Part shown: piece by piece, positions 45,684 through 55,580 of the stretch
How positions within the stretch are numbered: position 1 is the first letter of the stretch
Layout of the letters: every line of letters starts with the position of its first letter
DNA from: Escherichia coli
GTDB taxonomy: Bacteria; Pseudomonadota; Gammaproteobacteria; Enterobacterales; Enterobacteriaceae
NCBI RefSeq assembly: GCF_003334405.1
Contig: NZ_QOWM01000015.1
Length of the DNA stretch: 64,000 nucleotides
Reading direction: 5' to 3' (one strand)
Notes under the pieces: model-generated
Databases searched by the model: none
What the model was told of the DNA's origin: nothing
Seen by the model: only the letters and a program-made list of their open reading frames with translations
Position numbers and translations under genes: made by a program

Positions 45684-46082
45684 TTATTGAAAAAGGCCGG
45701 TTTTCATCTTGCTGTTGTTTTCAGAGAACGTCCACTTGCTGACGGTTTCGCCTTTAAATTCGATTTCCAGCGTTTTGGCCTGCGTCTGTGAACCCCCGGT
45801 CAGCAGTCCAATCACGGGAATGAATGTGGTGGCATCAAACTGATTGTTGTCCATCGAATAAGTCCATTGTTCATTGCCACTATCAAGTGTAGTTTTGGTT
45901 TCGGGCTGACCGAATGCGGTAATGATTTCTGATTTCGTTGTTTTATTTTTGATGATTTTCGACTGCAGACTTTGTGATGTTTCTTTTTTTAGATGCTGGT
46001 TGCCTGATGTTGAACAGCCAGAAATAAGTAAAGAAGAAATAAAAAACACAGAAATCATGAATCTGTTCATAAGTTTTCTCAT
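45684..46082 (-). CDS. lipoprotein
   Basis: 132-aa ORF with signal peptide and lipobox LISGC. Confidence 0.6.
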   Translation of the reverse strand: MRKLMNRFMISVFFISSLLISGCSTSGNQHLKKETSQSLQSKIIKNKTTKSEIITAFGQPETKTTLDSGNEQWTYSMDNNQFDATTFIPVIGLLTGGSQTQAKTLEIEFKGETVSKWTFSENNSKMKTGLFQ

Positions 46083-46119
46083 ATTAATTTTTTATGTTTG
46101 CGGTGGTGTGAAATTAATA

Positions 46120-46395
46120 TCATCTTATAAAAACAACTCTGTCTGCATATTTCTTTTTAATAATGCAGATAAGAATAATGACGCTGGCAAAAAACGTAAT
46201 GACTGAGGCAGGAGTGCTGCCGGTCAATGAAAACACTAACCAGGCGAGAGCTAATGCCACGAATTGAAACAGGAATGCCACACTGAGTGGACTTTCACCA
46301 TAGGCCACTTTTGCATGGCAACCTTTGCAAACCCGCACACCGTGTGGGCTTTGTGTAAAGCAGAAAGGGCAGCTAATCGTTTTATTATCCATCAT
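46120..46395 (-). CDS. zinc-ribbon membrane protein
   Basis: 91-aa ORF with CPFC…CKGC zinc-ribbon motif followed by two hydrophobic helices. Confidence 0.5.
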   Translation of the reverse strand: MMDNKTISCPFCFTQSPHGVRVCKGCHAKVAYGESPLSVAFLFQFVALALAWLVFSLTGSTPASVITFFASVIILICIIKKKYADRVVFIR

Positions 46396-46580
46396 GACTC
46401 CGTAGCCTGATTTAAGGTGATGTATTTTTGAACATTTTCGATGAATGAACTGCTTTAGTAAAATTGCTTGTACCGATCGATGGATCTCAGGCGATAGGTT
46501 ATATCTATTATAGCTAGATTATCGATCTATAAAAACGATCGATATCTTATTGACTATCACTAAAGTATGGACTAGCTAAC

Positions 46581-47810
46581 TTATGGTGCAGGATGGTTGT
46601 TGTTTTTAAATGATTGTTCTTTATTGGTATTTGTTGTCATGGGATGACAGGGTGTCAGAATATGTAGGTGGAGGATTTGGTGGAAAGGATGTGCAGTGGC
46701 ATGTAACAGAGACATGCCTCTGCGCCTGAGAAGTGCCACAATATGGACGAGCAATACAAGCCATGAATACAGACGACGCTGGCGGGGTATCTGACGAGCT
46801 GTATTGTGCAGATTGCTCCTGAGCTGGATGATACCCACTGTCTCCTGTTGTCTTTCCAGACGAATTTTTTCTTCAAGCTGATGGATTTTCTCCAGAATCG
46901 TTTCCCGGTTTGCAGCCTGCTCTTCAGACTCGCATGATGGCACTGGCACTGGCACTGGCACTGGCACTGGCACTGGCGCGGTTGTAGGTTCTATTGGCCT
47001 CTGGGCTTCTTTCAGTAAACTCAGATGCTCAGGCGTAAAATCAATCAGTGCTTGCAGGGAAGACCAGCCATATTTTTTACCCAACTGAGATGCTTTAAAG
47101 GCAATACCCTGGTATTGAAATGAAAATCCACTCATTTTACCCGTAGTGGCGATATTGGGTTTGCAGGTCACTCCTTCCTGTTCCAGTAAGCGAACAAAGG
47201 TTAGTAAATCGGGATGGTGTGTTAATGCATTGTCGAGCAGGGCCTGCAACAGTGACTTAGGGCAGGGAGCTGCTGTGCGTTCTGCCATCATCAGTTCATT
47301 ACGGGAAGGCTTCCTTTTATCCTGGCGGCTACTGCCGGTTACACCCGTAGTTTCGGTGAGGCCGTGTACTCTCTCCAGCTCACTGATAATCCGTGTGCCG
47401 ATAAGATTTTCATTTTTCCCCAGGTACAGTTTTCCACCGACCATGTTAATACGACTTGCAATGATATGAATATGCTGCCCATCCGGATCATCGTGCATGA
47501 TATAGCAGCGAAGATGGGTGTCAGTGAAGCCCATTCGGGCCATATAATCGTCAGCGAATGCTGCCCACTGTCTGTTTGACAGTTTCTCACCCTTTGGCAG
47601 GCGAAGTGAATTATGCCAGACAGGTTTGGCGACATCGGGACGCAGCAGTCGGGTGCCTTCAAATTCACTTATAAGCTCAGCAGCAGTGCTACCCGTCATG
47701 TTGCCACCGATGACATAAGGCGTGATTTTGTGGTGAGAACCTGACTTCAGGCTATAAATAACCACACCTGTGAATTGTTTACCCCTTTTTATTTTCTGCA
47801 TGCCTTTCAT
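46581..47810 (-). CDS. mobilization relaxase (MobA/MobL-like) with (Pro-Val)n linker
   Basis: 409-aa ORF; three-histidine relaxase motif HDDPDGQHIHII; internal PVPVPVPVPVPVP tract encoded by six GGCACT hexamers (46939-46974); the extreme C-terminus may be read-through. Confidence 0.75.
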   Translation of the reverse strand: MKGMQKIKRGKQFTGVVIYSLKSGSHHKITPYVIGGNMTGSTAAELISEFEGTRLLRPDVAKPVWHNSLRLPKGEKLSNRQWAAFADDYMARMGFTDTHLRCYIMHDDPDGQHIHIIASRINMVGGKLYLGKNENLIGTRIISELERVHGLTETTGVTGSSRQDKRKPSRNELMMAERTAAPCPKSLLQALLDNALTHHPDLLTFVRLLEQEGVTCKPNIATTGKMSGFSFQYQGIAFKASQLGKKYGWSSLQALIDFTPEHLSLLKEAQRPIEPTTAPVPVPVPVPVPVPSCESEEQAANRETILEKIHQLEEKIRLERQQETVGIIQLRSNLHNTARQIPRQRRLYSWLVLLVHIVALLRRRGMSLLHATAHPFHQILHLHILTPCHPMTTNTNKEQSFKNNNHPAP

Positions 47811-48214
47811 GGGTCTGACTCCAGAAATGTTGAGGGAATAAGGTGATCCCTGAGAGTTTTGATTTGTCTGCGCAGGGCGAAGAGTTCTGTACGGGTCAGT
47901 TCGCTGTCAGGGCTTTTGCTGTCGAGATGACTCAACAGGTAGTTTAAATCCTGTGAAAGGCTGCCAAGTTTTATCCATGCTTCACGATTGATTTCTGGCA
48001 GAACCGGCGGGAGTTTATTCAGGGAAGCCATCCTGAGCCATTCTCCTTTTTTATACTGACCTCTTTTACTGTCGAGAATAATTAATTCTTCTTCATTTAA
48101 TCTGACACTGATGCAGTGATGTCGTATTTCATTCTCAGGAAATTTGTCAGTATGGAATTTACCGCGTTTTGATACTCTGGTTATATCATCATCATTACTC
48201 ATGTCACTGTTCAT
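47807..48214 (-). CDS. MobC-like relaxosome accessory protein
   Basis: 135-aa ORF whose stop overlaps the relaxase start by 4 nt. Confidence 0.6.
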   Translation of the reverse strand: MNSDMSNDDDITRVSKRGKFHTDKFPENEIRHHCISVRLNEEELIILDSKRGQYKKGEWLRMASLNKLPPVLPEINREAWIKLGSLSQDLNYLLSHLDSKSPDSELTRTELFALRRQIKTLRDHLIPSTFLESDP

Positions 48215-48415
48215 AGTTATCCTTTTATTTCATGTTTATTACTACAGATAACCGATGAAATGAATAAGTCAAGTTGTTACGGGATAAATAATTTAATTAT
48301 CTGGATTAAAAAAGGTATACCATTTGACAAATAGTATACCCACGAGGACATATCAGATTAATGGTCATTAAATGAATCCTTGCAGACTAAGAAAAGGGTT
48401 GTTTACTCCAGAGTT

Positions 48416-49369
48416 TTAGAGTCTTTTTCGTACAGATGAACGGGGGATCTCTGGCTTCATTTCTTTTAACAGGTCTTTTTTCTCTCTTGCTGCGATATAA
48501 GAAAAAATCTTATCGGAGTCAGAACGCTGTCTGAGTATATCGTCGTCCATTCGGATACCATTTCGAATGAACCATTTCACACTTTCTATGCCGGTGTAGA
48601 TACCAATATGTTTATCATGATAACAATTATAAAACTGAACATGACTGATATCGGTATATTTTTTCAGTGAGGTAAAGAAGTACTTCATGTTTTTGACATA
48701 TAATGCGAAGGAACAGTGTTCAGCGATAAGGATATTACGCCCTTTTTCATGAAGCAAAGCAATTAGAGGCAAAGCCTCAGTTGAAACATGTTTAAATAAT
48801 ACTGGCGTGCTGTCTATTCTATCAACATGGCGTTTGAGGGCATTAATACTGAAATCATATATCCACCACTCGTTGTCAGTCGGAAGATCCAGCACCGCTT
48901 TGCCACCATAATCTCTGTGGTTTATGTCACACCCTTTATTTACCCAGTAATCAAAGACGTCATGATCGAGGAGGTCATAAAGAAGCGTTTGTCCTTCGTT
49001 ATCTGTGCTGTGGATATCAATGCCCGCGTTTATGAGGAGTTCCGCACAATCTATGGCGTAGCGCTGCCAGTGAAGACAGGACTGGCCTTTATTATTTTTG
49101 TGGTGAACGTTAATACCTGACTTTATCAATAGCCTCACTGCACGTGGGCTTTTTCTGCTAAACAGGGCATTATTACCATAACAATCTGTATGGTTCAGCG
49201 CTATGCCTGCTTCAATCATGGCTTTTAAAGCCCCGATACTGTCGCAACCGAAAAGGGCGTTTTCACCGTGTTCATTAAGTGTGTTAATGTCAATGCCTGC
49301 AGCAATGCAATTCTGGACGTCTTTTTTAGTTTTGCTGTCAAATAAATTATCTTCTGTATAGTTACTCAT
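48416..49369 (-). CDS. ankyrin-repeat protein
   Basis: 317-aa ORF; N-terminal half has repeated ankyrin-like units (…GENALFGC…LKAMIEAGIALNHTDCYGNNALF…AVRLLIKSGINVHHKNNKGQSCLHW…AELLINAGIDIHSTDNEGQTLLY…); C-terminus …SSVRKRL. Confidence 0.7.
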   Translation of the reverse strand: MSNYTEDNLFDSKTKKDVQNCIAAGIDINTLNEHGENALFGCDSIGALKAMIEAGIALNHTDCYGNNALFSRKSPRAVRLLIKSGINVHHKNNKGQSCLHWQRYAIDCAELLINAGIDIHSTDNEGQTLLYDLLDHDVFDYWVNKGCDINHRDYGGKAVLDLPTDNEWWIYDFSINALKRHVDRIDSTPVLFKHVSTEALPLIALLHEKGRNILIAEHCSFALYVKNMKYFFTSLKKYTDISHVQFYNCYHDKHIGIYTGIESVKWFIRNGIRMDDDILRQRSDSDKIFSYIAAREKKDLLKEMKPEIPRSSVRKRL

Positions 49370-49383
49370 GGGCGTTCTCCTTT

Positions 49384-49824
49384 TTAAGCGGTCGTTTTGT
49401 GCCAGGTATTATTGTTGTATTCATATTCTTTTATCTTAATGATCTCGTCATAGATCCGTGAAAAAGAAAACCATGAGATCTCTTTCACTTCGCCTTTTTT
49501 GTTTGTGTAAATGATATTGCAGCCACGAAAAGAAAATGACTGATAGAAAGTATCGTGATTCTCCTCTTTAAGAAAACGGGTAAAAGCTTTTATGGTGTCT
49601 TTTTTTTCCATGCTATAAGAGAAAAAGGTATGGATAGCAAATATGGTCAGAATATTTCTTTCCGTCACCATATGTCTGGAAAAATAATTAAGATAAAAAA
49701 CATGATCTTCAATGCTATTTTTACAGAATATTGAAAAGTGAGGGTTATACAGACGGTAGAGATCTGTATTCTTTTTTGTTTTAGATAGGTAACTTGTCAG
49801 GGTTGAATAGTTTTGTTTTTTCAT
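49384..49824 (-). CDS. hypothetical protein (upstream partner of the ankyrin gene)
   Basis: 146-aa ORF ending 15 nt before the ankyrin start, same strand. Confidence 0.5.
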   Translation of the reverse strand: MKKQNYSTLTSYLSKTKKNTDLYRLYNPHFSIFCKNSIEDHVFYLNYFSRHMVTERNILTIFAIHTFFSYSMEKKDTIKAFTRFLKEENHDTFYQSFSFRGCNIIYTNKKGEVKEISWFSFSRIYDEIIKIKEYEYNNNTWHKTTA

Positions 49825-49826
49825 TT

Positions 49827-50183
49827 TTATTCTCCTTTATTATTTTGATGAAATGAATGTATATTATCAAATAAATAAAAATCAAATTTATTTTTAATAA
49901 TAAAAAATAAGCAAGCGTTTTCTTTTGAATAAACTAATTTAATGTGATGTTTTATATAAATAAATTCATAGTTTGCAAAAAGTGCTATTTTTATTTCATG
50001 GTTGATTGATGGGCGTTTTTCCCCATTGCTTAGGGGGAAATATATCCCATTAATATTAAATGTTTGAAGTGAATCGTATTTTAGCAGGGGAATATTATAT
50101 CTTTTACTTCTGTTTTGATTTTCAACTTTGTGTGTGAGACACAATATGTGATAGTGTTGTGATAATCGTAAGTATCCTGCCAA
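49827..50183 (-). CDS. hypothetical protein (doubtful)
   Basis: 118-aa ORF in extremely AT-rich DNA; may be non-coding. Confidence 0.25.
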   Translation of the reverse strand: MAGYLRLSQHYHILCLTHKVENQNRSKRYNIPLLKYDSLQTFNINGIYFPLSNGEKRPSINHEIKIALFANYEFIYIKHHIKLVYSKENACLFFIIKNKFDFYLFDNIHSFHQNNKGE

Positions 50184-50405
50184 AACGAATCATTCACTTT
50201 AAACCTTTACTGACATATTGGTTATATATTCTGAGAAATTTATAGTGCAAAAGGCTCGGTGTGCAGACTTACGCCAGCCCAATCAAGCCGTAGTGCTTTA
50301 GTTTTGGGGCTTAGGTATGGTGGAAAAAAGCGACTCGTTAAGCTTACTGAGCTCTATGTATTTCAGGAGTCGGTCAGTAAGTTAACGATCCAAGAGGCTC
50401 ATCAA

Positions 50406-50678
50406 TCATAAGAGATGTATCAATCTTGCGAGACTCTCACGGATTTTATCGCCGTCATAAATAGCAATCTCTTCAATATTGTTACCAATGAAAGTTTCAG
50501 CTGCCTGGATGGCTATCAGTTCAGACATACCAACGTTATCAGCCAGCAGGCGTGCTGCAATGACCTTGCTTTCAAGAGTTAGGATGACCGGCCTGTAGCC
50601 TGCGCGTTTGATTTTGATACAGTGTGAAATCAATTTCTCCATAGGTGCGGTGGTCACTTGGAATGCAGTCGTACCCAC
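50406..50678 (-). pseudogene. possible gene remnant
   Basis: 90-aa ORF in a ~1.3 kb stretch (50.2-51.5 kb) lacking long ORFs; no family recognised. Confidence 0.25.
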
Positions 50679-51401
50679 CTGAAAGGCCCCTTCACGGTCA
50701 ATGTGTGGATCATTAGCATTGGCCCTGCGACTACTGATTTTAACATCTAGGGAAACGTAGCTGATGTTTGGCTTCGATAAGATTCTGTAGCACCGCCTCA
50801 GTGGGGTTGTCAGAACATTCCGCTGCCGCCTTAAGAATATCGCTTACTAGAGATGAAACTGGTTGATTGTAATCCCGGTCGACCGTTACTCTATGTTTAT
50901 CCGGATAATTTTGGCGTACACATTAAGTGAAGAAAACTTCAAAGTGATTTGAAACAGATGTTGTATTCACTGGCTCATTTACATTAACTTGAGTGTTGTT
51001 CAGCACATGTTGAAACGCAGCTGTAAGGAAGATGATACAGCCAAGATGTATCCTTCATTATGGGGATTGGCGCGATGACCACCACGGCTTAGCCCGATTG
51101 ATTATTTGGAAATTGATTAGAATGCATAATCTGGGCTGAGCTCACTTAAAGTCTCTAATGTTTGACTTGGAGATTTGGGGGGCAGTGGCTTTCAGTTTTG
51201 TTAACTCTAACATCTGGTTTACGTTCCTTTTGGAACAAGAAGCAGAGGTCTGCTAAGTAATGGTTGTACTGCTTGTGATAGGTATGACTGCATGTTCAGC
51301 GAGCAAGAATGGCTTAAAAGTTCTGTTACTGAGCACCCCATGAAGTTAGAACGATGTCATAACGTGCACGTAACCGTTGAACTGTTCTCTTACAGATAAT
51401 C

Positions 51402-51440
51402 TCTACATAGCTATTATTGCTTAGGCGGTAGCTATGTAGA
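51402..51440. promoter_or_regulatory. 12-bp perfect inverted repeat upstream of the NACHT gene (candidate operator)
   Basis: TCTACATAGCTA (51402-51413) and TAGCTATGTAGA (51429-51440) with a 15-bp spacer, ~80 bp upstream of the start at 51518. Confidence 0.45.
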
Positions 51441-51517
51441 TGGTTTTTGTAATATTATATTAAAAGTTCATACAGCGACTATAGCATCATTGCGAAAAAT
51501 ATCAGGAGGTGAGTTTA

Positions 51518-53623
51518 ATGTTACGAAAAAGCAAACTTACAGAGATATATAAAAGGTTTGGTTTTACTGAAGAAAATACAGGTAACGAAAGTATTGCTGT
51601 ATATTCTATTAAAACAGGGCACTACCATAACGCGGACATACTTCCACTAAATAATGAGGTTAATGTAAATCAAACCTTTGAAGAATATAGGCAGTTAGGT
51701 TATGCATGTCAAATTAAAAAATATCAGTCTTATGAAGAAGCACATAAGGAATTATTTAATGGCTTCTTTAGCGTCGATTCAACTAAAGAAAGGTTGATTA
51801 AAGATTATAATACTTTCACAGATTCAATTGTAAAAATTCACTCACCTACTGCAACTTATTCCTACATAAATTCAAAATATTACTTAAATGGTGTTATTGG
51901 CGAAGCTAATGTTGTTACGGAAATATTAGAGAGAATACAACATAGGCGTCCAATTCTGTTTTTGATTGAGGCTGCAGCCGGTTTTGGAAAGACTTGCACG
52001 GCGTATGAATTATTGAGGGAGATTATAGTTAACAATATAGGGAAAATACCATTATTTTCAGAACTATCAAGGAATAGGCAAGCAAAAATATTCAGGTATG
52101 TACTATTAGATGAAATTGATAGAAGTTTTCCTTTGTTAAGCTCAGCCTTAGTAAGGAATGAAATAAGAGCAGGAAATGTACCAGTTATACTTGACGGGTT
52201 TGATGAACTATTGCATGAAAGTACAAACGGAATTGAAAATAATTATGAAAAAACAGAGCCAATGCTGGAAACAATAAGTGAGCTTCTAACTGATAGTGCA
52301 AAAGTGGTTTTGACAACTCGAAGAACAGCTATATTTGACGGAGATGAATTCCATCAGTGGATAGCATCACATCAAGAAGATTTTGATGTGATAAGAATAA
52401 GAATTCATGAACCACAAATTGAAGACTGGCTTCCAGGTCAACGTTTAGATGAAATTTCATCGACAGGATTTCCTCTTAACAAATTATCAAACCCTGTACT
52501 GCTATCATTTCTAAGATGCATCGACGACACCGACTTTAATAAAGTTATAAGCGACCCAACAACTATAGTGAGGAAGTATTTTGATTCAATGCTTGAGCGA
52601 GAAAGAAAAAGACAAGATTTATTAATGTCTATTGAAGATCAATATACTATACTAAAAATAATAGCTGACGACATGGTCGAGGGTAACTACACATCTGAGT
52701 CTAGAGAGTATATATCGTTAGTCATAACTGAAAAGAATCAACAACTCTTGGAGGCTACAAGAAAGCTTTATACTGTAGATGAAAGACCAACTACTGACGA
52801 ATTAGTTAATAAATTAGCATCGCATGCTCTATTAGATCGGTCAGGCTCAGAAAACCAAGGTATTGGATTTGTTAATGAATTTGTTCTTGGTAATTTTGTT
52901 TCTGAAAATATTATTAATGATAAGTCAAATGAATGGATTGGTGATAAACGTTTTATAGAACCAGCAGTGCAATCTTATATGCCGAGGATCGATGATGAAA
53001 AAGAATTACTTTGGCATAGCTTAGAGTTTGCTTTATATTTTATGTCAGGTAATGATAAAATCCTTTATAGTCATTTGCTTATAGGAAAAGTTCCATTAGA
53101 TTTAAAAAATGATAGTGTTGAGCAATTGTCTATATCAAAACTTTCTTTAGGCGATATAAATATAATACATGATACTATCTTTGTTGATTGTTCCTTTTTT
53201 AGCAGCATATTTACCTGTGGTAATTATAAAAACGTTACATTCGTGAACTGTTCTTTTATAGATTGTAGTTTTAACGAATTAAGTGGTAGGGAAGATATTT
53301 ATTTTTTGGGATGTGAATGTGACAATGATGCTATTAATAAAAAATCTGTCGAGATAAACAGTGAAAATGATCACGATATTACAGATTGTGATATTTACAT
53401 CTTAGAGAAGTTCTGTCCCAGAGGGAGTGTTAGCTATCATAAGCATCGGCCTATAAAAGGCTTATGTTCTAACAACAATCAATTTCAGTTAAGTGAAATA
53501 CTCCATTCTTTAGATAAATTGAGGAAAGACGGTCTTTTACTTACGCCAGACAAGCGTTCGTTCCTTGAACTTAACATGGCAAGAATATCAGAGATTAAAG
53601 CAATTCTTGGGAGGAATTTCTGA
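51518..53623 (+). CDS. NACHT-type STAND P-loop NTPase with Cys-rich repeat C-terminus
   Basis: ORF 51509-53623; ATG at 51518 sits 8 nt after AGGAGGT. Walker A LIEAAAGFGKT, Walker B VILDGFDEL (hhhhDGhDE), then VVLTTRR, in NACHT order; C-terminal Cys-rich region (FVDCSFFSSIFTCGNYKNVTFVNCSFIDCSF…). Confidence 0.75.
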   Translation: MLRKSKLTEIYKRFGFTEENTGNESIAVYSIKTGHYHNADILPLNNEVNVNQTFEEYRQLGYACQIKKYQSYEEAHKELFNGFFSVDSTKERLIKDYNTFTDSIVKIHSPTATYSYINSKYYLNGVIGEANVVTEILERIQHRRPILFLIEAAAGFGKTCTAYELLREIIVNNIGKIPLFSELSRNRQAKIFRYVLLDEIDRSFPLLSSALVRNEIRAGNVPVILDGFDELLHESTNGIENNYEKTEPMLETISELLTDSAKVVLTTRRTAIFDGDEFHQWIASHQEDFDVIRIRIHEPQIEDWLPGQRLDEISSTGFPLNKLSNPVLLSFLRCIDDTDFNKVISDPTTIVRKYFDSMLERERKRQDLLMSIEDQYTILKIIADDMVEGNYTSESREYISLVITEKNQQLLEATRKLYTVDERPTTDELVNKLASHALLDRSGSENQGIGFVNEFVLGNFVSENIINDKSNEWIGDKRFIEPAVQSYMPRIDDEKELLWHSLEFALYFMSGNDKILYSHLLIGKVPLDLKNDSVEQLSISKLSLGDINIIHDTIFVDCSFFSSIFTCGNYKNVTFVNCSFIDCSFNELSGREDIYFLGCECDNDAINKKSVEINSENDHDITDCDIYILEKFCPRGSVSYHKHRPIKGLCSNNNQFQLSEILHSLDKLRKDGLLLTPDKRSFLELNMARISEIKAILGRNF

Positions 53624-54528
53624 TGTATAACGGGAATGAATTGCGAATTATTCAAAGTTTGCAAAAAGATATAGAAGATGAACTTAATCGTATTGGATTA
53701 CTTTATCGTTTTTTTTCGAGGACAAAATCAGAAAGCTCAATAATTAAGAAATATGAAAAAGAGCCTAATAAATACTCAGAGGATGGTAAAAAAATTCAAG
53801 ACTTATTTGGGGTTAGGATAATATTATATTTTCCTGATGATTTATTTATTGCTCAAAAAACACTGGAGAAATTATTCGAAATTGAATCTAAAACCGTAGA
53901 CGAAACCACGGCTAATCTCTTTGCGGCAACTCGATGCAATTACGTCTTTAAGTTACCAGAAGTATTATCAAATGATAGTGTCTTATTAAAGAAATATTCT
54001 TATATTGATACTACTTTTGAAGTCCAATTTAGAACTATTTTATCTGAAGGATGGCATGAAGTTGAGCATGATCTACGCTATAAGTGCAAAGAGGATTGGG
54101 TTGAGCATAATGACCTTAGTCGCGCGCTGAATGGAATTTACGCCTCTTTGGAAACATCTGATTGGGGAATAATGAAGTTATTTGAGGATTTAGCATATAG
54201 AAATTATAAGTCAAGCGCATGGTCCGCTATGCTAAGAAATAAATTAAGATTGAGAATGGACGATAAGCTTGATGAAAAGATAATTTCAATAATTAATGAG
54301 AAAGAGCTTGGTAAAAAGTTTTATAGAATTGACAGAGATCGTTTGTTATCGTTAATGTTAGATTATAATATTGATATACCAATTAATCTTAATAATATAA
54401 TTTACCTTTGTAATTATTTTTTCATAAAATCTACGGAGCTTCAGGATATAGCCCCTGCTTTAATAATGAAAAAGCTTACAGATGCTGATGAAAAATTCAA
54501 TAAAAATACTATTTTAGCATCTAAATAA
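53623..54528 (+). CDS. RelA/SpoT-homolog (RSH) synthetase-fold nucleotidyltransferase, toxSAS-like
   Basis: 301-aa ORF whose ATG overlaps the upstream stop (TGATG). Motifs SRTKSESSIIKK, DLFGVRIILYFPDD and EVQFRTILSEGWHEVEHDLRYK match the (p)ppGpp synthetase fold (compare RelA EVQIRT…AAHWKYK). Confidence 0.7.
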   Translation: MYNGNELRIIQSLQKDIEDELNRIGLLYRFFSRTKSESSIIKKYEKEPNKYSEDGKKIQDLFGVRIILYFPDDLFIAQKTLEKLFEIESKTVDETTANLFAATRCNYVFKLPEVLSNDSVLLKKYSYIDTTFEVQFRTILSEGWHEVEHDLRYKCKEDWVEHNDLSRALNGIYASLETSDWGIMKLFEDLAYRNYKSSAWSAMLRNKLRLRMDDKLDEKIISIINEKELGKKFYRIDRDRLLSLMLDYNIDIPINLNNIIYLCNYFFIKSTELQDIAPALIMKKLTDADEKFNKNTILASK

Positions 54529-54555
54529 TAACTATCTCCGGCTATTAAGTAGGCC

Positions 54556-54590
54556 TTGTATTTTAGGCCTACTTAAAAAGTTTCATTATG
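54556..54590 (+). terminator. rho-independent terminator after the NACHT-RSH operon
   Basis: Hairpin AAGTAGGCC/GGCCTACTT with T-rich loop, followed by AAAAAGTTT, 28 nt after the stop. Confidence 0.55.
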
Positions 54591-55580
54591 TGAAGTGATG
54601 ATGATAGCAAATCTGATATCTTTATGGTTGGATGCGAGAAAATATTTTTATCCCGACACAACAACTGGTAATGATAGAAAATTTAAACCCAAAAATGCTA
54701 CAGTAGCCTCAGCTCACAAACGGAGTATAAAGTGGCGGTTACTCTTTAGTGGGAATACTGTAGATAGTTGATAAACTGGGCTGGATTTTCTTTTCTAACC
54801 GAAGGGAAGAAAAGCAAGGGGAACCCAAAGAAACAAGCGCAGCGGCTTCGTAGGGTTAGCCCTTGCTTCTTTTATAATTGGCATTATTCATTCAAGAACA
54901 ATAGGATCTTCGCTTGTACAAGCGAAGCTATAATAAAAAATCAATTAATTATTTTAAAAGTATTAAGCAAGAGCCTATTGACATTCGTAAAATAAAAGTT
55001 ATTTTTAATGTATGCCATAAATAAAAAGTTTTATGTCATATGTATCCTGCACTATGTGCAGTTAATGTGCCACTTGTCCCATATATGGGAATATTGGAAA
55101 GGTTACTTTGTTTTGAAGTAGCCTTTCGTCCTTCAATATTCACGATTACTTATTGCTATTACCAAGTCCAGTCGAATCGAAGAACATCTTTTATCTGAAA
55201 CGACTCCTAATACCAGGTTGAAGCCACAATATCTCTCGCATAAGTAGACCAAAGAAAAATTATGATATTAACTATGTGATTTTTTTTAGCGTTAAGTTGA
55301 ATAATTATATACTGGAGAGTTTTCTGTACACTACCAATTGCTGGTTCATCTGTTCTGCCGCTGATGTTTCTGACTAATCTCCCGGTGACACAGAACTGTC
55401 CCTCTCTACCAGCCTTTATTCGACTCAATGTCCGGCTGCTGATACGCAGTTATCCCTTCGTATCAATGACTGACTCTTAAACGCAATGCTTTGGTTGCTG
55501 GCGTATCTGACAGCTTCTTCGGCGTGAAGGTCGTTGTGTAAGTATACTTCTTGGTTTATTTAGGCTATATAAAACCATGA

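What the first reader, a model, noticed from the sequence alone, without database searches (positions are those of the whole stretch)
46581..48415. Mobilization module (MobC + relaxase) with an in-frame (GGCACT)6 repeat encoding a Pro-Val linker, and a candidate oriT
The relaxase (HDDPDGQHIHII motif) and a MobC-like gene overlap by 4 nt. Inside the relaxase, six perfect GGCACT hexamers (46939-46974) encode PVPVPVPVPVPV; repeat-number changes would keep the frame and vary linker length. Upstream of mobC (48215-48415) there is an inverted repeat GGTATAC…GTATACC (48314-48340), a plausible oriT or nic-region hairpin. A relaxase without a cognate T4SS implies mobilization in trans.
Basis: partly seen in the sequence, partly recalled or inferred. 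Interest (0 to 1): 0.45.

Follow-up and report, generated by a model that had tools for sequence, protein, structure and literature searches.

The report
Island mobilization module, variable relaxase linker
The relaxase and helper gene of an E. coli chromosomal island at the tmRNA gene are real and carry a Pro-Val spacer that varies in length between strains, but the proposed transfer origin looks like a transcription terminator, and the family's conserved origin-like hairpin lies 6.6 kb away behind cargo genes.

Summary

The module sits on an island integrated at ssrA that has no T4SS, so it is an integrative mobilizable element.

The (GGCACT)6 array is a true in-frame VNTR. Near-identical E. 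coli alleles carry 6 to 13 copies. Relatives carry (PV)n, (PM)n or (PA)n arrays of up to 21 units.

The oriT proposal is not supported. The 48314-48341 palindrome is a 13-bp stem followed by T6, 75 nt after the ankyrin gene, so it is terminator-like, and relatives do not conserve it.

Two other cis elements are conserved across the family:
- **Hairpin U** (AAGCAAGGGCTAAC...) shows compensatory changes. It lies just upstream of the accessory gene in relatives, plasmid types included. In this window it is at 54812-54868, separated from mobC by 6.6 kb of cargo. It is the best oriT candidate.
- **Element D** (46452-46556) lies just downstream of the relaxase. It is the most conserved DNA of the block, and its role is unresolved.

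This is a new member of a known kind, of moderate interest.

The parts
46581..47810 (-). Relaxase gene, 409 aa. N-terminal HUH relaxase domain plus a conserved middle domain (residues 1-270), a (PV)6 spacer (279-290), and a C-terminal coiled-coil and hydrophobic region (293-409).
46939..46974 (-). In-frame hexanucleotide VNTR: (GGCACT)6 on the + strand, CCAGTG (Pro-Val) in coding sense.
   Evidence: TRF. Copy numbers 6, 7, 9, 11 and 13 were read directly from sequence, with at most 4 differences in 2065 flanking nt. Copy numbers 8, 10 and 12 are inferred from match spans.
47807..48214 (-). Relaxosome accessory gene, 135 aa, ribbon-helix-helix type, a homolog of IncQ2 MobC and NikA-like.
   Evidence: 42% identity over 86 aa, E 9e-22, to pGNB2 MobC. 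NikA-like PF21983 at E<=0.1 in 22 of 25 family members, best 9.8e-5. No Pfam MobC or NCBIfam hit.
48245..48272 (-). Likely promoter of the mobC-relaxase operon: TTGACT, 16 nt, TATCTG.
   Evidence: This is the main conserved stretch of the upstream spacer across six relatives. Coordinates. It falls below the threshold of the consensus scan, so it is an inference.
48307..48341 (-). Terminator-like, downstream of the ankyrin gene (stop at 48416).
   Evidence: Terminator scan. RNA fold of the 66-nt segment containing it -16.6 kcal/mol, z -2.98. Not conserved in relatives.
54788..54868 (-). Element U: a conserved hairpin (54812-54868, AAGCAAGGGCTAACCC...GGGTTCCCCTTGCTT) followed by TTTTCTTCCCTTCGGTTAGAAAAG. 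Best oriT candidate.
   Evidence: One mismatch to the family core; sequence. The same hairpin lies upstream of the accessory gene in about 55 relatives, including plasmid-type relaxase-primase genes. Compensatory changes occur at 6 or more stem positions. ssDNA fold -14.3 kcal/mol, z -2.71.
46452..46556 (-). Element D: a conserved array with fixed spacing, IR1 at 46518-46546, GATAG-N7-CTATC at 46492-46509, and the invariant core CATCGATCGGTACAA at 46468-46482. A promoter-like TTTACT-17-GAAAAT follows just below 46468. Role unresolved.
   Evidence: Alignments. It is the only 12-mer stretch of window 42-51 kb shared with at least 5 of 15 distant loci, apart from two A/T-rich 12-mers. It always lies 75-135 nt after the relaxase stop, whatever gene follows. 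Four GATC sites within 66 nt.
48416..54787 (.). Variable cargo slot between U and the mobC promoter. It holds the ankyrin gene, ORFs of 146, 118 and 90 aa, and a gene pair encoding a 704-aa P-loop protein and a 301-aa RelA/SpoT-like protein.
   Evidence: The U-to-mobC distance is 183 nt in L003, 2.3 kb in L004, 4.6 kb in L001 and 6.65 kb in the window. Gene content.
45337..46395 (-). Three small genes downstream of element D: a 91-aa zinc-ribbon membrane protein, a 132-aa lipoprotein and a 106-aa lipoprotein. They are part of the conserved block.
   Evidence: ORFs. Conserved synteny in L004-L006. Block conservation.
59199..60957 (-). Island integrase ORF (59199-60572) next to ssrA, the tmRNA gene (60595-60957), which is the integration site.
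   Evidence: ARAGORN. Integrase PRK09692, E 2.7e-133. Annotation of the identical island.

Best explanation
This is the mobilization module of an integrative mobilizable element inserted at ssrA in the E. coli chromosome.

Shown here: an intact HUH relaxase with a conserved Tyr19 and His106/His113/His115 triad; a ribbon-helix-helix accessory protein translationally coupled to it by an ATGA overlap; and no T4SS on the island.

Inferred mechanism: after excision the accessory protein and relaxase assemble at oriT. The relaxase nicks one strand, stays attached to its 5' end, and is exported with the strand through the T4SS of a co-resident conjugative element.

The oriT is most likely not the palindrome next to mobC. 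That palindrome is best read as the intrinsic terminator of the upstream ankyrin gene. The better candidate is the family-wide hairpin U at 54812-54868 (- strand) together with the conserved CCCTTCGGTT stretch after it. In relatives, plasmid types included, U sits directly upstream of the accessory gene. In E. coli islands, variable cargo of 0.2 to more than 6 kb, including defence genes, has been inserted between U and the mob promoter.

The (CCAGTG)6 array is a slippage-prone coding VNTR. It encodes a proline-rich (Pro-X)n spacer between the DNA-processing half of the relaxase and a clade-specific C-terminal coiled-coil and hydrophobic domain. Copy number changes quickly and always in frame, so it alters spacer length and not expression.

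A second, very strongly conserved element (D, 46452-46556) follows the relaxase gene. It is most simply read as a regulated promoter and operator for the downstream small membrane and lipoprotein genes, but that is not shown.
For: - **Accessory protein:**
- **Context:** ssrA island, chromosomal in all 205 E. coli genomes that hold it, with no nucleotide match on 72,556 plasmid records except one 3.6-kb linear contig filed as a plasmid. The same block also occurs in islands beside mutS that carry Kiwa and type I R-M genes.
- **VNTR:**. Homolog lengths run from 399 to 413 aa, nearly all differing by multiples of 2 aa.
- **Terminator reading:**
- **Element U:** conserved from Enterobacterales to Pseudomonas, Acidithiobacillus, Gallionella and Burkholderiales. 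It lies directly upstream of the accessory gene of a relaxase-primase in Acidithiobacillus, in the kind of spacer upstream of the mob operon where oriTs are predicted for IncQ2-type plasmids of that group (bioRxiv 10.1101/2025.04.02.646953). Double-sided compensatory changes include the window's own CTAACCC/GGGTT against the common CTAACTC/GAGTT. U stays conserved when cargo separates it from mobC. It is present in 609 of 5426 E. coli genomes.
Against: - No transfer, nicking or excision data exist for this family in the literature I could search.
- U lies 6.65 kb from the mob operon here.
- In Enterobacterales U is followed by a T-rich run, so it could also, or only, act as a terminator.
- No nick site can be assigned. 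The IncP-type ATCCTG is not conserved; the copy at the 3' end of the relaxase ORF is absent from L006 and L004.
- Within Enterobacterales, element D is more strictly conserved than U and is physically tied to the relaxase gene, so D could be the site the relaxase acts on.
- No helper element was identified.
- No att direct repeat of the ssrA end was found in the window.
- IS elements interrupt some copies, so individual islands may be immobile.
Confidence: 0.62

Rival explanations
1. One reading: oriT lies in the 48215-48415 spacer immediately upstream of mobC, and the GGTATACC...GGTATACC-type palindrome is the hairpin of the nic region.
For: This is the usual position of oriT for MOBP and MOBQ modules, including pGNB2-type plasmids and the wider family of this relaxase. 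The palindrome is real and not a chance match.
Against: The palindrome is followed by T6 on the strand of the upstream gene, 75 nt after that gene's stop. The spacer is 42% identical on average across six relatives. The palindrome itself is not conserved, and each relative examined has a different hairpin there, most with a T-rich stretch after it. No 12-mer of this spacer is shared with 5 or more of the distant loci. The element that occupies this position in relatives (U) has no match at up to 4 mismatches within 1.2 kb upstream of the relaxase start here, and it is found at 54.8 kb instead.
Confidence: 0.07
2. Element D (46452-46556), just downstream of the relaxase gene, is the oriT, or a second relaxase target such as a termination or priming site, in the enterobacterial islands. 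U would then be a vestige or a terminator.
For: D is the most conserved DNA of the block. It is always 75-135 nt after the relaxase stop, on the same strand, even with relaxases only 48-60% identical and with unrelated downstream genes. Its layout, inverted repeats at fixed spacing followed by an invariant 15-mer, resembles that of relaxosome sites. Pipelines that look only upstream of relaxase genes would miss it (method of bioRxiv 10.64898/2026.01.13.699239).
Against: D is absent from every plasmid-type relative, all of which must have an oriT and all of which keep U. D is followed at a nearly constant distance by promoter-like hexamers and a start codon, which fits a promoter and operator. 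It has no significant single-strand fold. It does not resemble the MOBP or MOBQ nick consensus as I recall them.
Confidence: 0.2
3. The module is a decaying relic. The island no longer transfers by conjugation, the displaced U and the repeat-length variation are neutral by-products, and spread is by recombination or transduction.
For: oriT-like U is separated from the mob genes. IS3 and IS2 insertions occur in some copies. No helper or att repeat was identified. The copies are exclusively chromosomal.
Against: Both ORFs are intact, and the relaxase shows pN/pS below 1 over its whole length. The catalytic residues are conserved. The same block occurs at two different chromosomal sites and in many genera, which argues for ongoing horizontal movement. 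U and D are conserved far beyond neutral expectation.
Confidence: 0.15

Closest known systems
IncQ2-type mobilization systems (pTC-F14, pTF-FC2, pGNB2; relaxase family MOBP14 according to PMC6856555)
   Same: The relaxase domain is 43% identical over residues 6-253. The accessory protein is 42% identical to pGNB2 MobC. The accessory gene sits immediately upstream of, and overlaps, the relaxase gene. Acidithiobacillus relatives with a relaxase-primase carry hairpin U just upstream of the accessory gene.
   Different: There is no primase or RepB fusion; the protein is 409 aa against about 800. The C-terminal coiled-coil and hydrophobic domain is specific to this clade. The (Pro-X)n VNTR is new. 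The module is chromosomal and integrative. U is separated from the operon by cargo. Element D is absent from the plasmid types. pGNB2 itself has no recognisable U at up to 4 mismatches.
IncP and IncI MOBP relaxosomes (RP4 TraI/TraJ, R64 NikB/NikA)
   Same: The HxDx..HxH motif, an N-terminal Tyr, and a ribbon-helix-helix accessory protein of NikA type.
   Different: NCBIfam TraI_MobP_relax scores 52.6 bits against a cut-off of 250. The ATCCTG nick consensus, as I recall it, is not conserved at any of the candidate sites.
R1162/RSF1010 MobA (MOBQ) and pMV158 MobM (MOBV) relaxase domains
   Different: 9-11% sequence identity, and no sequence-level PDB hit.
Integrative mobilizable elements that carry defence cargo (the IMEs of E. 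coli hotspot #9 at tmRNA, PMC10121019; PIMEs, bioRxiv 10.64898/2026.01.12.698999; SGI1)
   Same: Integrated at the tmRNA hotspot, with no T4SS, a relaxase and/or oriT, and variable defence cargo.
   Different: PIMEs are defined by int, alpA, repA, trbJ and trbL and have an IncP-like oriT. None of these is present here. SGI1 uses an unrelated MpsA.
Proline-dipeptide spacers such as TonB (Glu-Pro/Lys-Pro) and Ala-Pro linkers (own knowledge)
   Same: An alternating Pro-X run between two functional domains.
   Different: Here the run is encoded by a perfect hexamer array that varies among near-identical alleles and switches between Val, Met and Ala versions. No structural test was done.

Membership tests
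HUH conjugative relaxase (Pfam PF03432 MobA/VirD2) | Match to the family profile | tested here: met
   E 3.5e-22, residues 32-151
HUH conjugative relaxase (Pfam PF03432 MobA/VirD2) | N-terminal catalytic tyrosine | tested here: met
   Y19 is invariant in the close family and at least 90% conserved among 24 diverse relatives. Its catalytic role is inferred from position only.
HUH conjugative relaxase (Pfam PF03432 MobA/VirD2) | Three-histidine metal-binding motif HxDx(n)HxH | tested here: met
   H106-D107-D108...H113-I-H115. H115 is invariant; H106 and H113 are at least 90% conserved.
HUH conjugative relaxase (Pfam PF03432 MobA/VirD2) | Relaxase fold | tested here: met
HUH conjugative relaxase (Pfam PF03432 MobA/VirD2) | Site- and strand-specific nicking of an oriT | not testable with these tools
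   Needs biochemistry or nick mapping.
MOBP TraI/MobA(P) relaxases (NCBIfam NF041893) and IncQ2 MOBP14 | Score above the curated family cut-off | tested here: not met
   52.6 bits against a cut-off of 250. Bacteroides MobB 57.5 against 400; MbpB 41.7 against 400.
MOBP TraI/MobA(P) relaxases (NCBIfam NF041893) and IncQ2 MOBP14 | Closest typed relatives belong to the class | tested here: met
   43% identity over 248 aa to the pGNB2 relaxase, typed MOBP and IncQ2 by MOB-suite. No phylogeny was made.
MOBP TraI/MobA(P) relaxases (NCBIfam NF041893) and IncQ2 MOBP14 | Relaxase-primase fusion, typical of IncQ-type MobA | tested here: not met
   409 aa. The C-terminal 120 aa are a clade-specific domain with no Pfam hit. 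The Acidithiobacillus relative has an 809-aa fusion.
MobC relaxosome protein (Pfam PF05713) | Match to the Pfam MobC profile | tested here: not met
   No hit for the protein or for any of 25 family members.
Ribbon-helix-helix relaxosome accessory proteins (NikA-like PF21983; IncQ2 'MobC') | Sequence homology to a member | tested here: met
   E 9e-22 and 42% identity over 86 aa to pGNB2 MobC. NikA-like at E<=0.1 in 22 of 25 members and at E<=0.001 in 2.
Ribbon-helix-helix relaxosome accessory proteins (NikA-like PF21983; IncQ2 'MobC') | RHH fold | tested here: inconclusive
   The monomer model has pLDDT 62.8. The two helices are present but the strand is not formed. No fold search was run on it.
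Integrative mobilizable element | Integrase next to a tRNA or tmRNA site; relaxase present; no T4SS or coupling protein | tested here: met
   Integrase and ssrA. No conjugation genes in the annotation or among the large ORFs.
Integrative mobilizable element | Flanking att direct repeats; excision; transfer dependent on a helper | tested here: inconclusive
   No repeat of 13 nt or more of the ssrA 3' end was found in the window. Shorter repeats were not examined. Excision and transfer cannot be tested here.
oriT (element U, 54788-54868) | Inverted repeat next to a conserved core, conserved together with the relaxase across relatives | tested here: met
   About 55 loci, plasmid types included. 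Compensatory changes at 6 or more stem positions.
oriT (element U, 54788-54868) | Adjacent to the relaxosome genes | tested here: not met
   6.65 kb upstream of mobC in the window, although adjacent (60-180 nt) in many relatives.
oriT (element U, 54788-54868) | Confers mobilization in cis; contains the nick | not testable with these tools
   Needs experiment.
Intrinsic terminator (palindrome 48307-48341) | Stable hairpin followed by a U-tract, downstream of a gene on the same strand | tested here: met
   13-bp stem, 3-nt loop, T6, 75 nt after the ankyrin stop. The stem is A+T-rich, with 3 G-C pairs.
Coding VNTR / contingency locus | Perfect tandem array with copy-number polymorphism among otherwise near-identical alleles | tested here: met
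   6 to 13 copies, with at most 4 differences in 2065 flanking nt.
Coding VNTR / contingency locus | Slippage switches expression on and off (phase variation) | tested here: not met
   The 6-nt unit keeps the reading frame. All alleles examined are full-length ORFs.

The most novel reading that the evidence does not exclude
The (Pro-X)n array may be a selected, fast-evolving length-tuner. It would set the reach between the oriT-bound relaxase domain and the C-terminal docking domain, and so let the island adapt to different helper coupling proteins or T4SSs. Together with this, element D may be a previously undescribed relaxase-linked DNA site, for example a termination, priming or methylation-sensed switch, specific to chromosomal islands.
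Probability: 0.12. Interest if true: 0.6.

Novelty: new member of a known kind. Interest (0 to 1): 0.42.

Why it matters
This block is a widespread carrier of variable cargo, including anti-phage systems, in E. coli and other Enterobacterales, and I found no name for it in the searchable literature. The relaxase block is found by megablast in 205 of 5426 complete E. coli genomes. Hairpin U is found in 609.

Knowing where its oriT really lies decides how such islands are detected and tested. Here that spacer holds only a terminator and a promoter, and the conserved hairpin is kilobases away behind cargo.

The cargo slot between U and the mob promoter is a defined place to look for new defence genes. 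The relaxase VNTR is a ready-made strain marker. It is also a testable case of linker-length variation in a DNA-transfer enzyme.

Tried and rejected
- **Frameshift in the relaxase C-terminus.** The odd His/Leu-rich C-terminal 100 aa might have been a frameshift artefact or an overlap with a DNA element. Rejected: the full length is conserved in homologs. Against distant relatives the region diverges normally, with pN/pS below 1. The very low pS against L005 reflects a recombination mosaic.
- **Similarity of both spacers to pGNB2 and a Pseudomonas plasmid.** blastn-short returned only chance-level words.
- **IncP-type CATCCTGC at the 3' end of the relaxase ORF.** Not conserved in L006 or L004, so treated as chance.
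- **Plasmid searches with D and U.** None found, apart from one 3.6-kb linear contig filed as a plasmid.
- **Literature string searches** for the D core, the U core and the hexamer array: no relevant paper.
- **PIME family.** Different gene set.
- **van Zyl 2003 (PMC225039)**, which would show the pTC-F14 oriT, is not held.
- **Structure of the accessory protein.** Low confidence, so it was not used.
- **MAFFT alignment of U** was out of register in the right arm. Pair counts were therefore taken from per-sequence folds anchored on the ungapped left arm.
- **att repeat of the ssrA end.** None of 13 nt or more.
Full report
**Observation.**
- The two minus-strand ORFs, 46581-47810 (409 aa) and 47807-48214 (135 aa), overlap by ATGA.
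- HDDPDGQHIHII is residues 106-117 of the relaxase.
- Tandem Repeats Finder reports a perfect period-6 array at 46938-47977-equivalent coordinates 46938-46977. There are six exact GGCACT units at 46939-46974, found nowhere else in the window. In coding sense the unit is CCAGTG, Pro-Val.
- The inverted repeat upstream of mobC is stronger than described: 13-nt arms, 12/13 complementary, 1 nt apart.

**Context.** The 2.1-kb stretch is 100% identical to the chromosome of E. coli MFDS1001074.
- There it lies in an island between ssrA (tmRNA) and the ypjA/ileY region, which carries an integrase, a large serine recombinase, two ParB-like genes, IS elements and hypothetical genes, and no conjugation apparatus.
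- The window has the same layout, with tmRNA at 60595-60957 and an integrase ORF at 59199-60572.
- Megablast finds the block in 205 of 5426 complete E. coli genomes, always on the chromosome.
- It finds the block on none of 72,556 plasmid records, except a 3.6-kb linear Salmonella contig filed as a plasmid.
- Related copies of the same block (window 43170-48190 plus 49278-49999) sit in islands beside mutS that have a different integrase and carry Kiwa and type I restriction genes. Other copies lie next to a reverse transcriptase or PLD/AAA genes.
- E. coli tmRNA is a known hotspot for mobilizable elements that carry defence genes (PMC10121019).

**Relaxase.**
- Pfam PF03432 matches residues 32-151 (E 3.5e-22).
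- NCBIfam gives only sub-threshold hits: Bacteroides MobB, MOBP TraI and MbpB.
- Across 24 representatives that are 35-61% identical, Y19, H106, H113 and H115 are conserved.
- An AlphaFold model of residues 1-278 is confident (pLDDT 90).
- The closest plasmid-borne proteins are 50% identical (small Pseudomonas plasmids) and 43% identical (pGNB2-type IncQ2 plasmids, typed MOBP), but only over residues 1-250. IncQ2 relaxases are classed MOBP14 (PMC6856555).
- A whole-library search shows that about 3,570 representatives share the first 260 residues or so, attached to many different C-termini.
- The C-terminal 120 residues here (coiled coil, then WLxxLxxIVxLLRRxGxSLLHA) are specific to an enterobacterial clade. 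They evolve under purifying selection, with pN/pS below 1 against L002, L003 and L004.

**Accessory protein.**
- Neither Pfam MobC nor any NCBIfam model matches.
- The protein is nevertheless 42% identical over 86 residues (E 9e-22) to the annotated MobC of pGNB2.
- 22 of 25 family members touch the NikA-like profile at E<=0.1, best 9.8e-5.
- The conserved segment CxSVRLNxxELxxLxxKRGxYKKGEWLRMASL has the strand-helix-helix pattern of RHH relaxosome proteins. This is an inference; the monomer model was poor.

**The repeat.**
- Alleles that differ from the window at 4 or fewer of 2065 flanking positions carry 7, 9, 11 or 13 units.
- Match spans in three searches show that every value from 6 to 13 occurs.
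- Isolates of one pig-farm series, at identical chromosomal coordinates, differ by one unit.
- Homologous proteins are 399-413 aa long, nearly all differing in steps of 2 aa.
- More distant relatives have the array at the same place but homogenised to other units: (CCAGTG)17, (CCAATG)14 giving Pro-Met, (CCTGCT)~10 giving Pro-Ala, and up to 21 Pro-Ala units. A few relatives have none.
- So the spacer is a family trait that expands and contracts by slippage and always stays in frame. It changes length and does not switch expression.
- Against L005, synonymous divergence is 0.35-0.76 on the 5' side of the array and 0.03-0.08 on the 3' side. The array therefore also marks a recombination junction between the two halves of the gene.

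**The proposed oriT.**
- On the strand of the genes, the palindrome is a 13-bp stem with a 3-nt loop followed by TTTTTT. It starts 75 nt after the stop codon of the ankyrin gene.
- Aligned with five relatives, the spacer averages 42% column identity. The palindrome is not conserved; each relative examined has a different hairpin at that position, most followed by a T-rich stretch. The main conserved stretch is TTGAC(T)-16-TA(T/A)nT just before the accessory gene.
- This is the arrangement of a terminator followed by the mob promoter.
- A k-mer comparison with 15 distant loci found nothing conserved in this spacer.

**Element U.** A scan of one genome per species returned 75 loci with relatives of the relaxase.
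- In about 55 of them the motif (A/G)AGC(A/C/G)AGGGCTAAC lies 416-600 nt before the relaxase start, that is, just upstream of the accessory gene. These include long relaxase-primase genes from Pseudomonas, Acidithiobacillus, Gallionella, Paraburkholderia and Burkholderiales.
- In an Acidithiobacillus contig, U precedes a MobC-like gene and an 809-aa relaxase-primase. A study of IncQ2-type plasmids of that group predicts oriTs in the spacer upstream of the mob operon, each a palindrome adjacent to a nick site.
- The motif is the left arm of a long hairpin, -16 to -32 kcal/mol. Double-sided compensatory changes occur at stem positions 5, 8, 14, 15, 16 and further in.
- The window's own subclade has no U next to mobC. 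The window does, however, contain AGCAAGGGCTAACCC at 54853-54867 on the same strand. It has the full hairpin (54812-54868), a compensated CTAACCC/GGGTT inner stem, and the conserved TTTTCTTCCCTTCGGTTAGAAAAG tail.
- The distance from U to the mobC start is 183 nt in L003, 2.3 kb in L004, 4.6 kb in MFDS1001074 and 6.65 kb here. In E. coli 042 the order is int, recombinase, ParB, ParB, U, type I R-M, ankyrin.
- Cargo is therefore inserted between U and the mob promoter. U stays conserved although it is detached from the operon, which fits a cis-acting DNA site better than a leader or a terminator.
- U occurs in 609 of 5426 E. coli genomes, never on a plasmid.
- I rate U as the oriT at about 0.6. 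The nick position and the nicked strand cannot be assigned here.

**Element D.**
- The 185-nt spacer after the relaxase stop holds the longest invariant non-coding run of the block, 46452-46482.
- It is the only 12-mer stretch of window 42-51 kb, coding regions included, that is shared with at least 5 (and up to 15) of 15 distant loci, apart from two A/T-rich words.
- In 28 distinct sequences from more than a dozen genera it aligns without a single gap over about 85 nt: TTATTGATCG-N8-AGATCGATAA, then 10 variable nt, then GATAG-N7-CTATCA, then 10 variable nt, then the invariant CATCGATCGGTACAA.
- It is always 75-135 nt after the relaxase stop, on the same strand, whatever gene follows: a 91-aa zinc-ribbon membrane protein, unrelated 212- or 223-aa proteins, or a lipoprotein.
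- It holds three conserved GATC sites, four in the window within 66 nt, against 3.2 per kb overall.
- It is missing from all plasmid-type relatives.
- It has no significant single-strand fold and no Rfam match.
- It is followed by conserved promoter-like hexamers about 45 nt before a start codon.
- I read it as a regulated promoter and operator (about 0.5). A DNA-processing role cannot be excluded (about 0.2 that it is the oriT or a second relaxase site).

**Mechanism, and what is shown versus inferred.**
- Inferred: excision; relaxosome assembly at U; nicking by Tyr19; export through a helper's T4SS; and the spacer role of (Pro-X)n.
- No helper type could be named. From the literature, IncQ2 relatives are mobilized by IncP plasmids.

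**Comparison and novelty.**
- Functionally this is an ordinary integrative mobilizable element with a MOBP/MOBQ-like relaxosome. It is a new, widespread member of that kind, and I found no name for it in the searchable literature.
- The recently named PIMEs are a different family.
- It fails the curated cut-offs of the named relaxase families, and it lacks the primase fusion of its closest plasmid relatives. I therefore file it as a relative of IncQ2/MOBP14 modules and not as a member.
- Three features go beyond the known pattern: the hypervariable Pro-X linker array inside a relaxase, the cargo slot that separates the oriT-like hairpin from the mob operon, and element D.

**Limits.**
- Everything about function rests on comparative sequence evidence.
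- Copy numbers 8, 10 and 12 were inferred from alignment spans and not read from sequence.
- MOB class is taken from MOB-suite typing of a 43%-identical plasmid protein, not from a phylogeny.
- The comparison of the U tail with the R1162 nick region rests on my memory of that sequence.

Noticed in passing
window 51509-54528 (+): Two genes overlap by 1 nt in the cargo slot between U and mobC. One encodes a 704-aa P-loop protein (weak HalA-like hit, E 5.5e-4). The other encodes a 301-aa RelA/SpoT-like nucleotide pyrophosphokinase (E 2.7e-7; PADLOC PDC-S33, E 8e-5). They are a candidate two-gene defence or toxin system. In the otherwise identical island of MFDS1001074, IS3 and other genes take their place.
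   Followed up: partly
window 46452-46556 (-): Element D is a non-coding array with fixed spacing and three conserved GATC sites, and it is the most conserved DNA of the block. It follows the relaxase gene in about 50 Enterobacterales loci, whatever gene comes next, and is absent from plasmid-type relatives. Its role is unresolved.
   Followed up: yes
window 46581-47810 (-), junction at 46939-46974: The relaxase gene is a recombination mosaic with the VNTR at the junction. Against the mutS-site island L005, synonymous divergence is 0.35-0.76 on the 5' side and 0.03-0.08 on the 3' side.
   Followed up: partly
window 46120-46395 (-): A 91-aa ORF with a CPFC...CKGC zinc ribbon and a hydrophobic, probably membrane-spanning C-terminal part is the best-conserved protein of the block, with a 32-nt invariant run at 46289-46320. 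Two small lipoprotein genes follow it (45684-46082 and 45337-45657). No family match was found.
   Followed up: partly
window 55581-58922 (-): A large serine recombinase (CcrB-like, E 7e-18) and two tandem ParB-like genes lie between the integrase and hairpin U. E. coli 042 has the same order. Their role in the island, whether partition of an excised circle or something else, was not examined.
   Followed up: no
window 48416-49369 (-); L005 and L006: An ankyrin-repeat protein gene and a 146-aa ORF directly upstream of mobC recur in relatives, sometimes with the ankyrin gene duplicated. The ankyrin protein has a weak match to PADLOC candidate PDC-M72A (E 3e-8).
   Followed up: no
window 60540-60680 and the whole window: No direct repeat of 13 nt or more of the ssrA 3' end was found elsewhere in the window, so the far boundary (attR) of the island was not located.
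   Followed up: partly
OX345050.1 (L002): A 3.6-kb linear Salmonella record filed as a plasmid ('plasmid: 133', typed non-mobilizable) holds a homologous relaxase, an accessory gene and an ankyrin-like gene. The relaxase itself is unannotated. The record is probably a chromosomal contig.
   Followed up: partly
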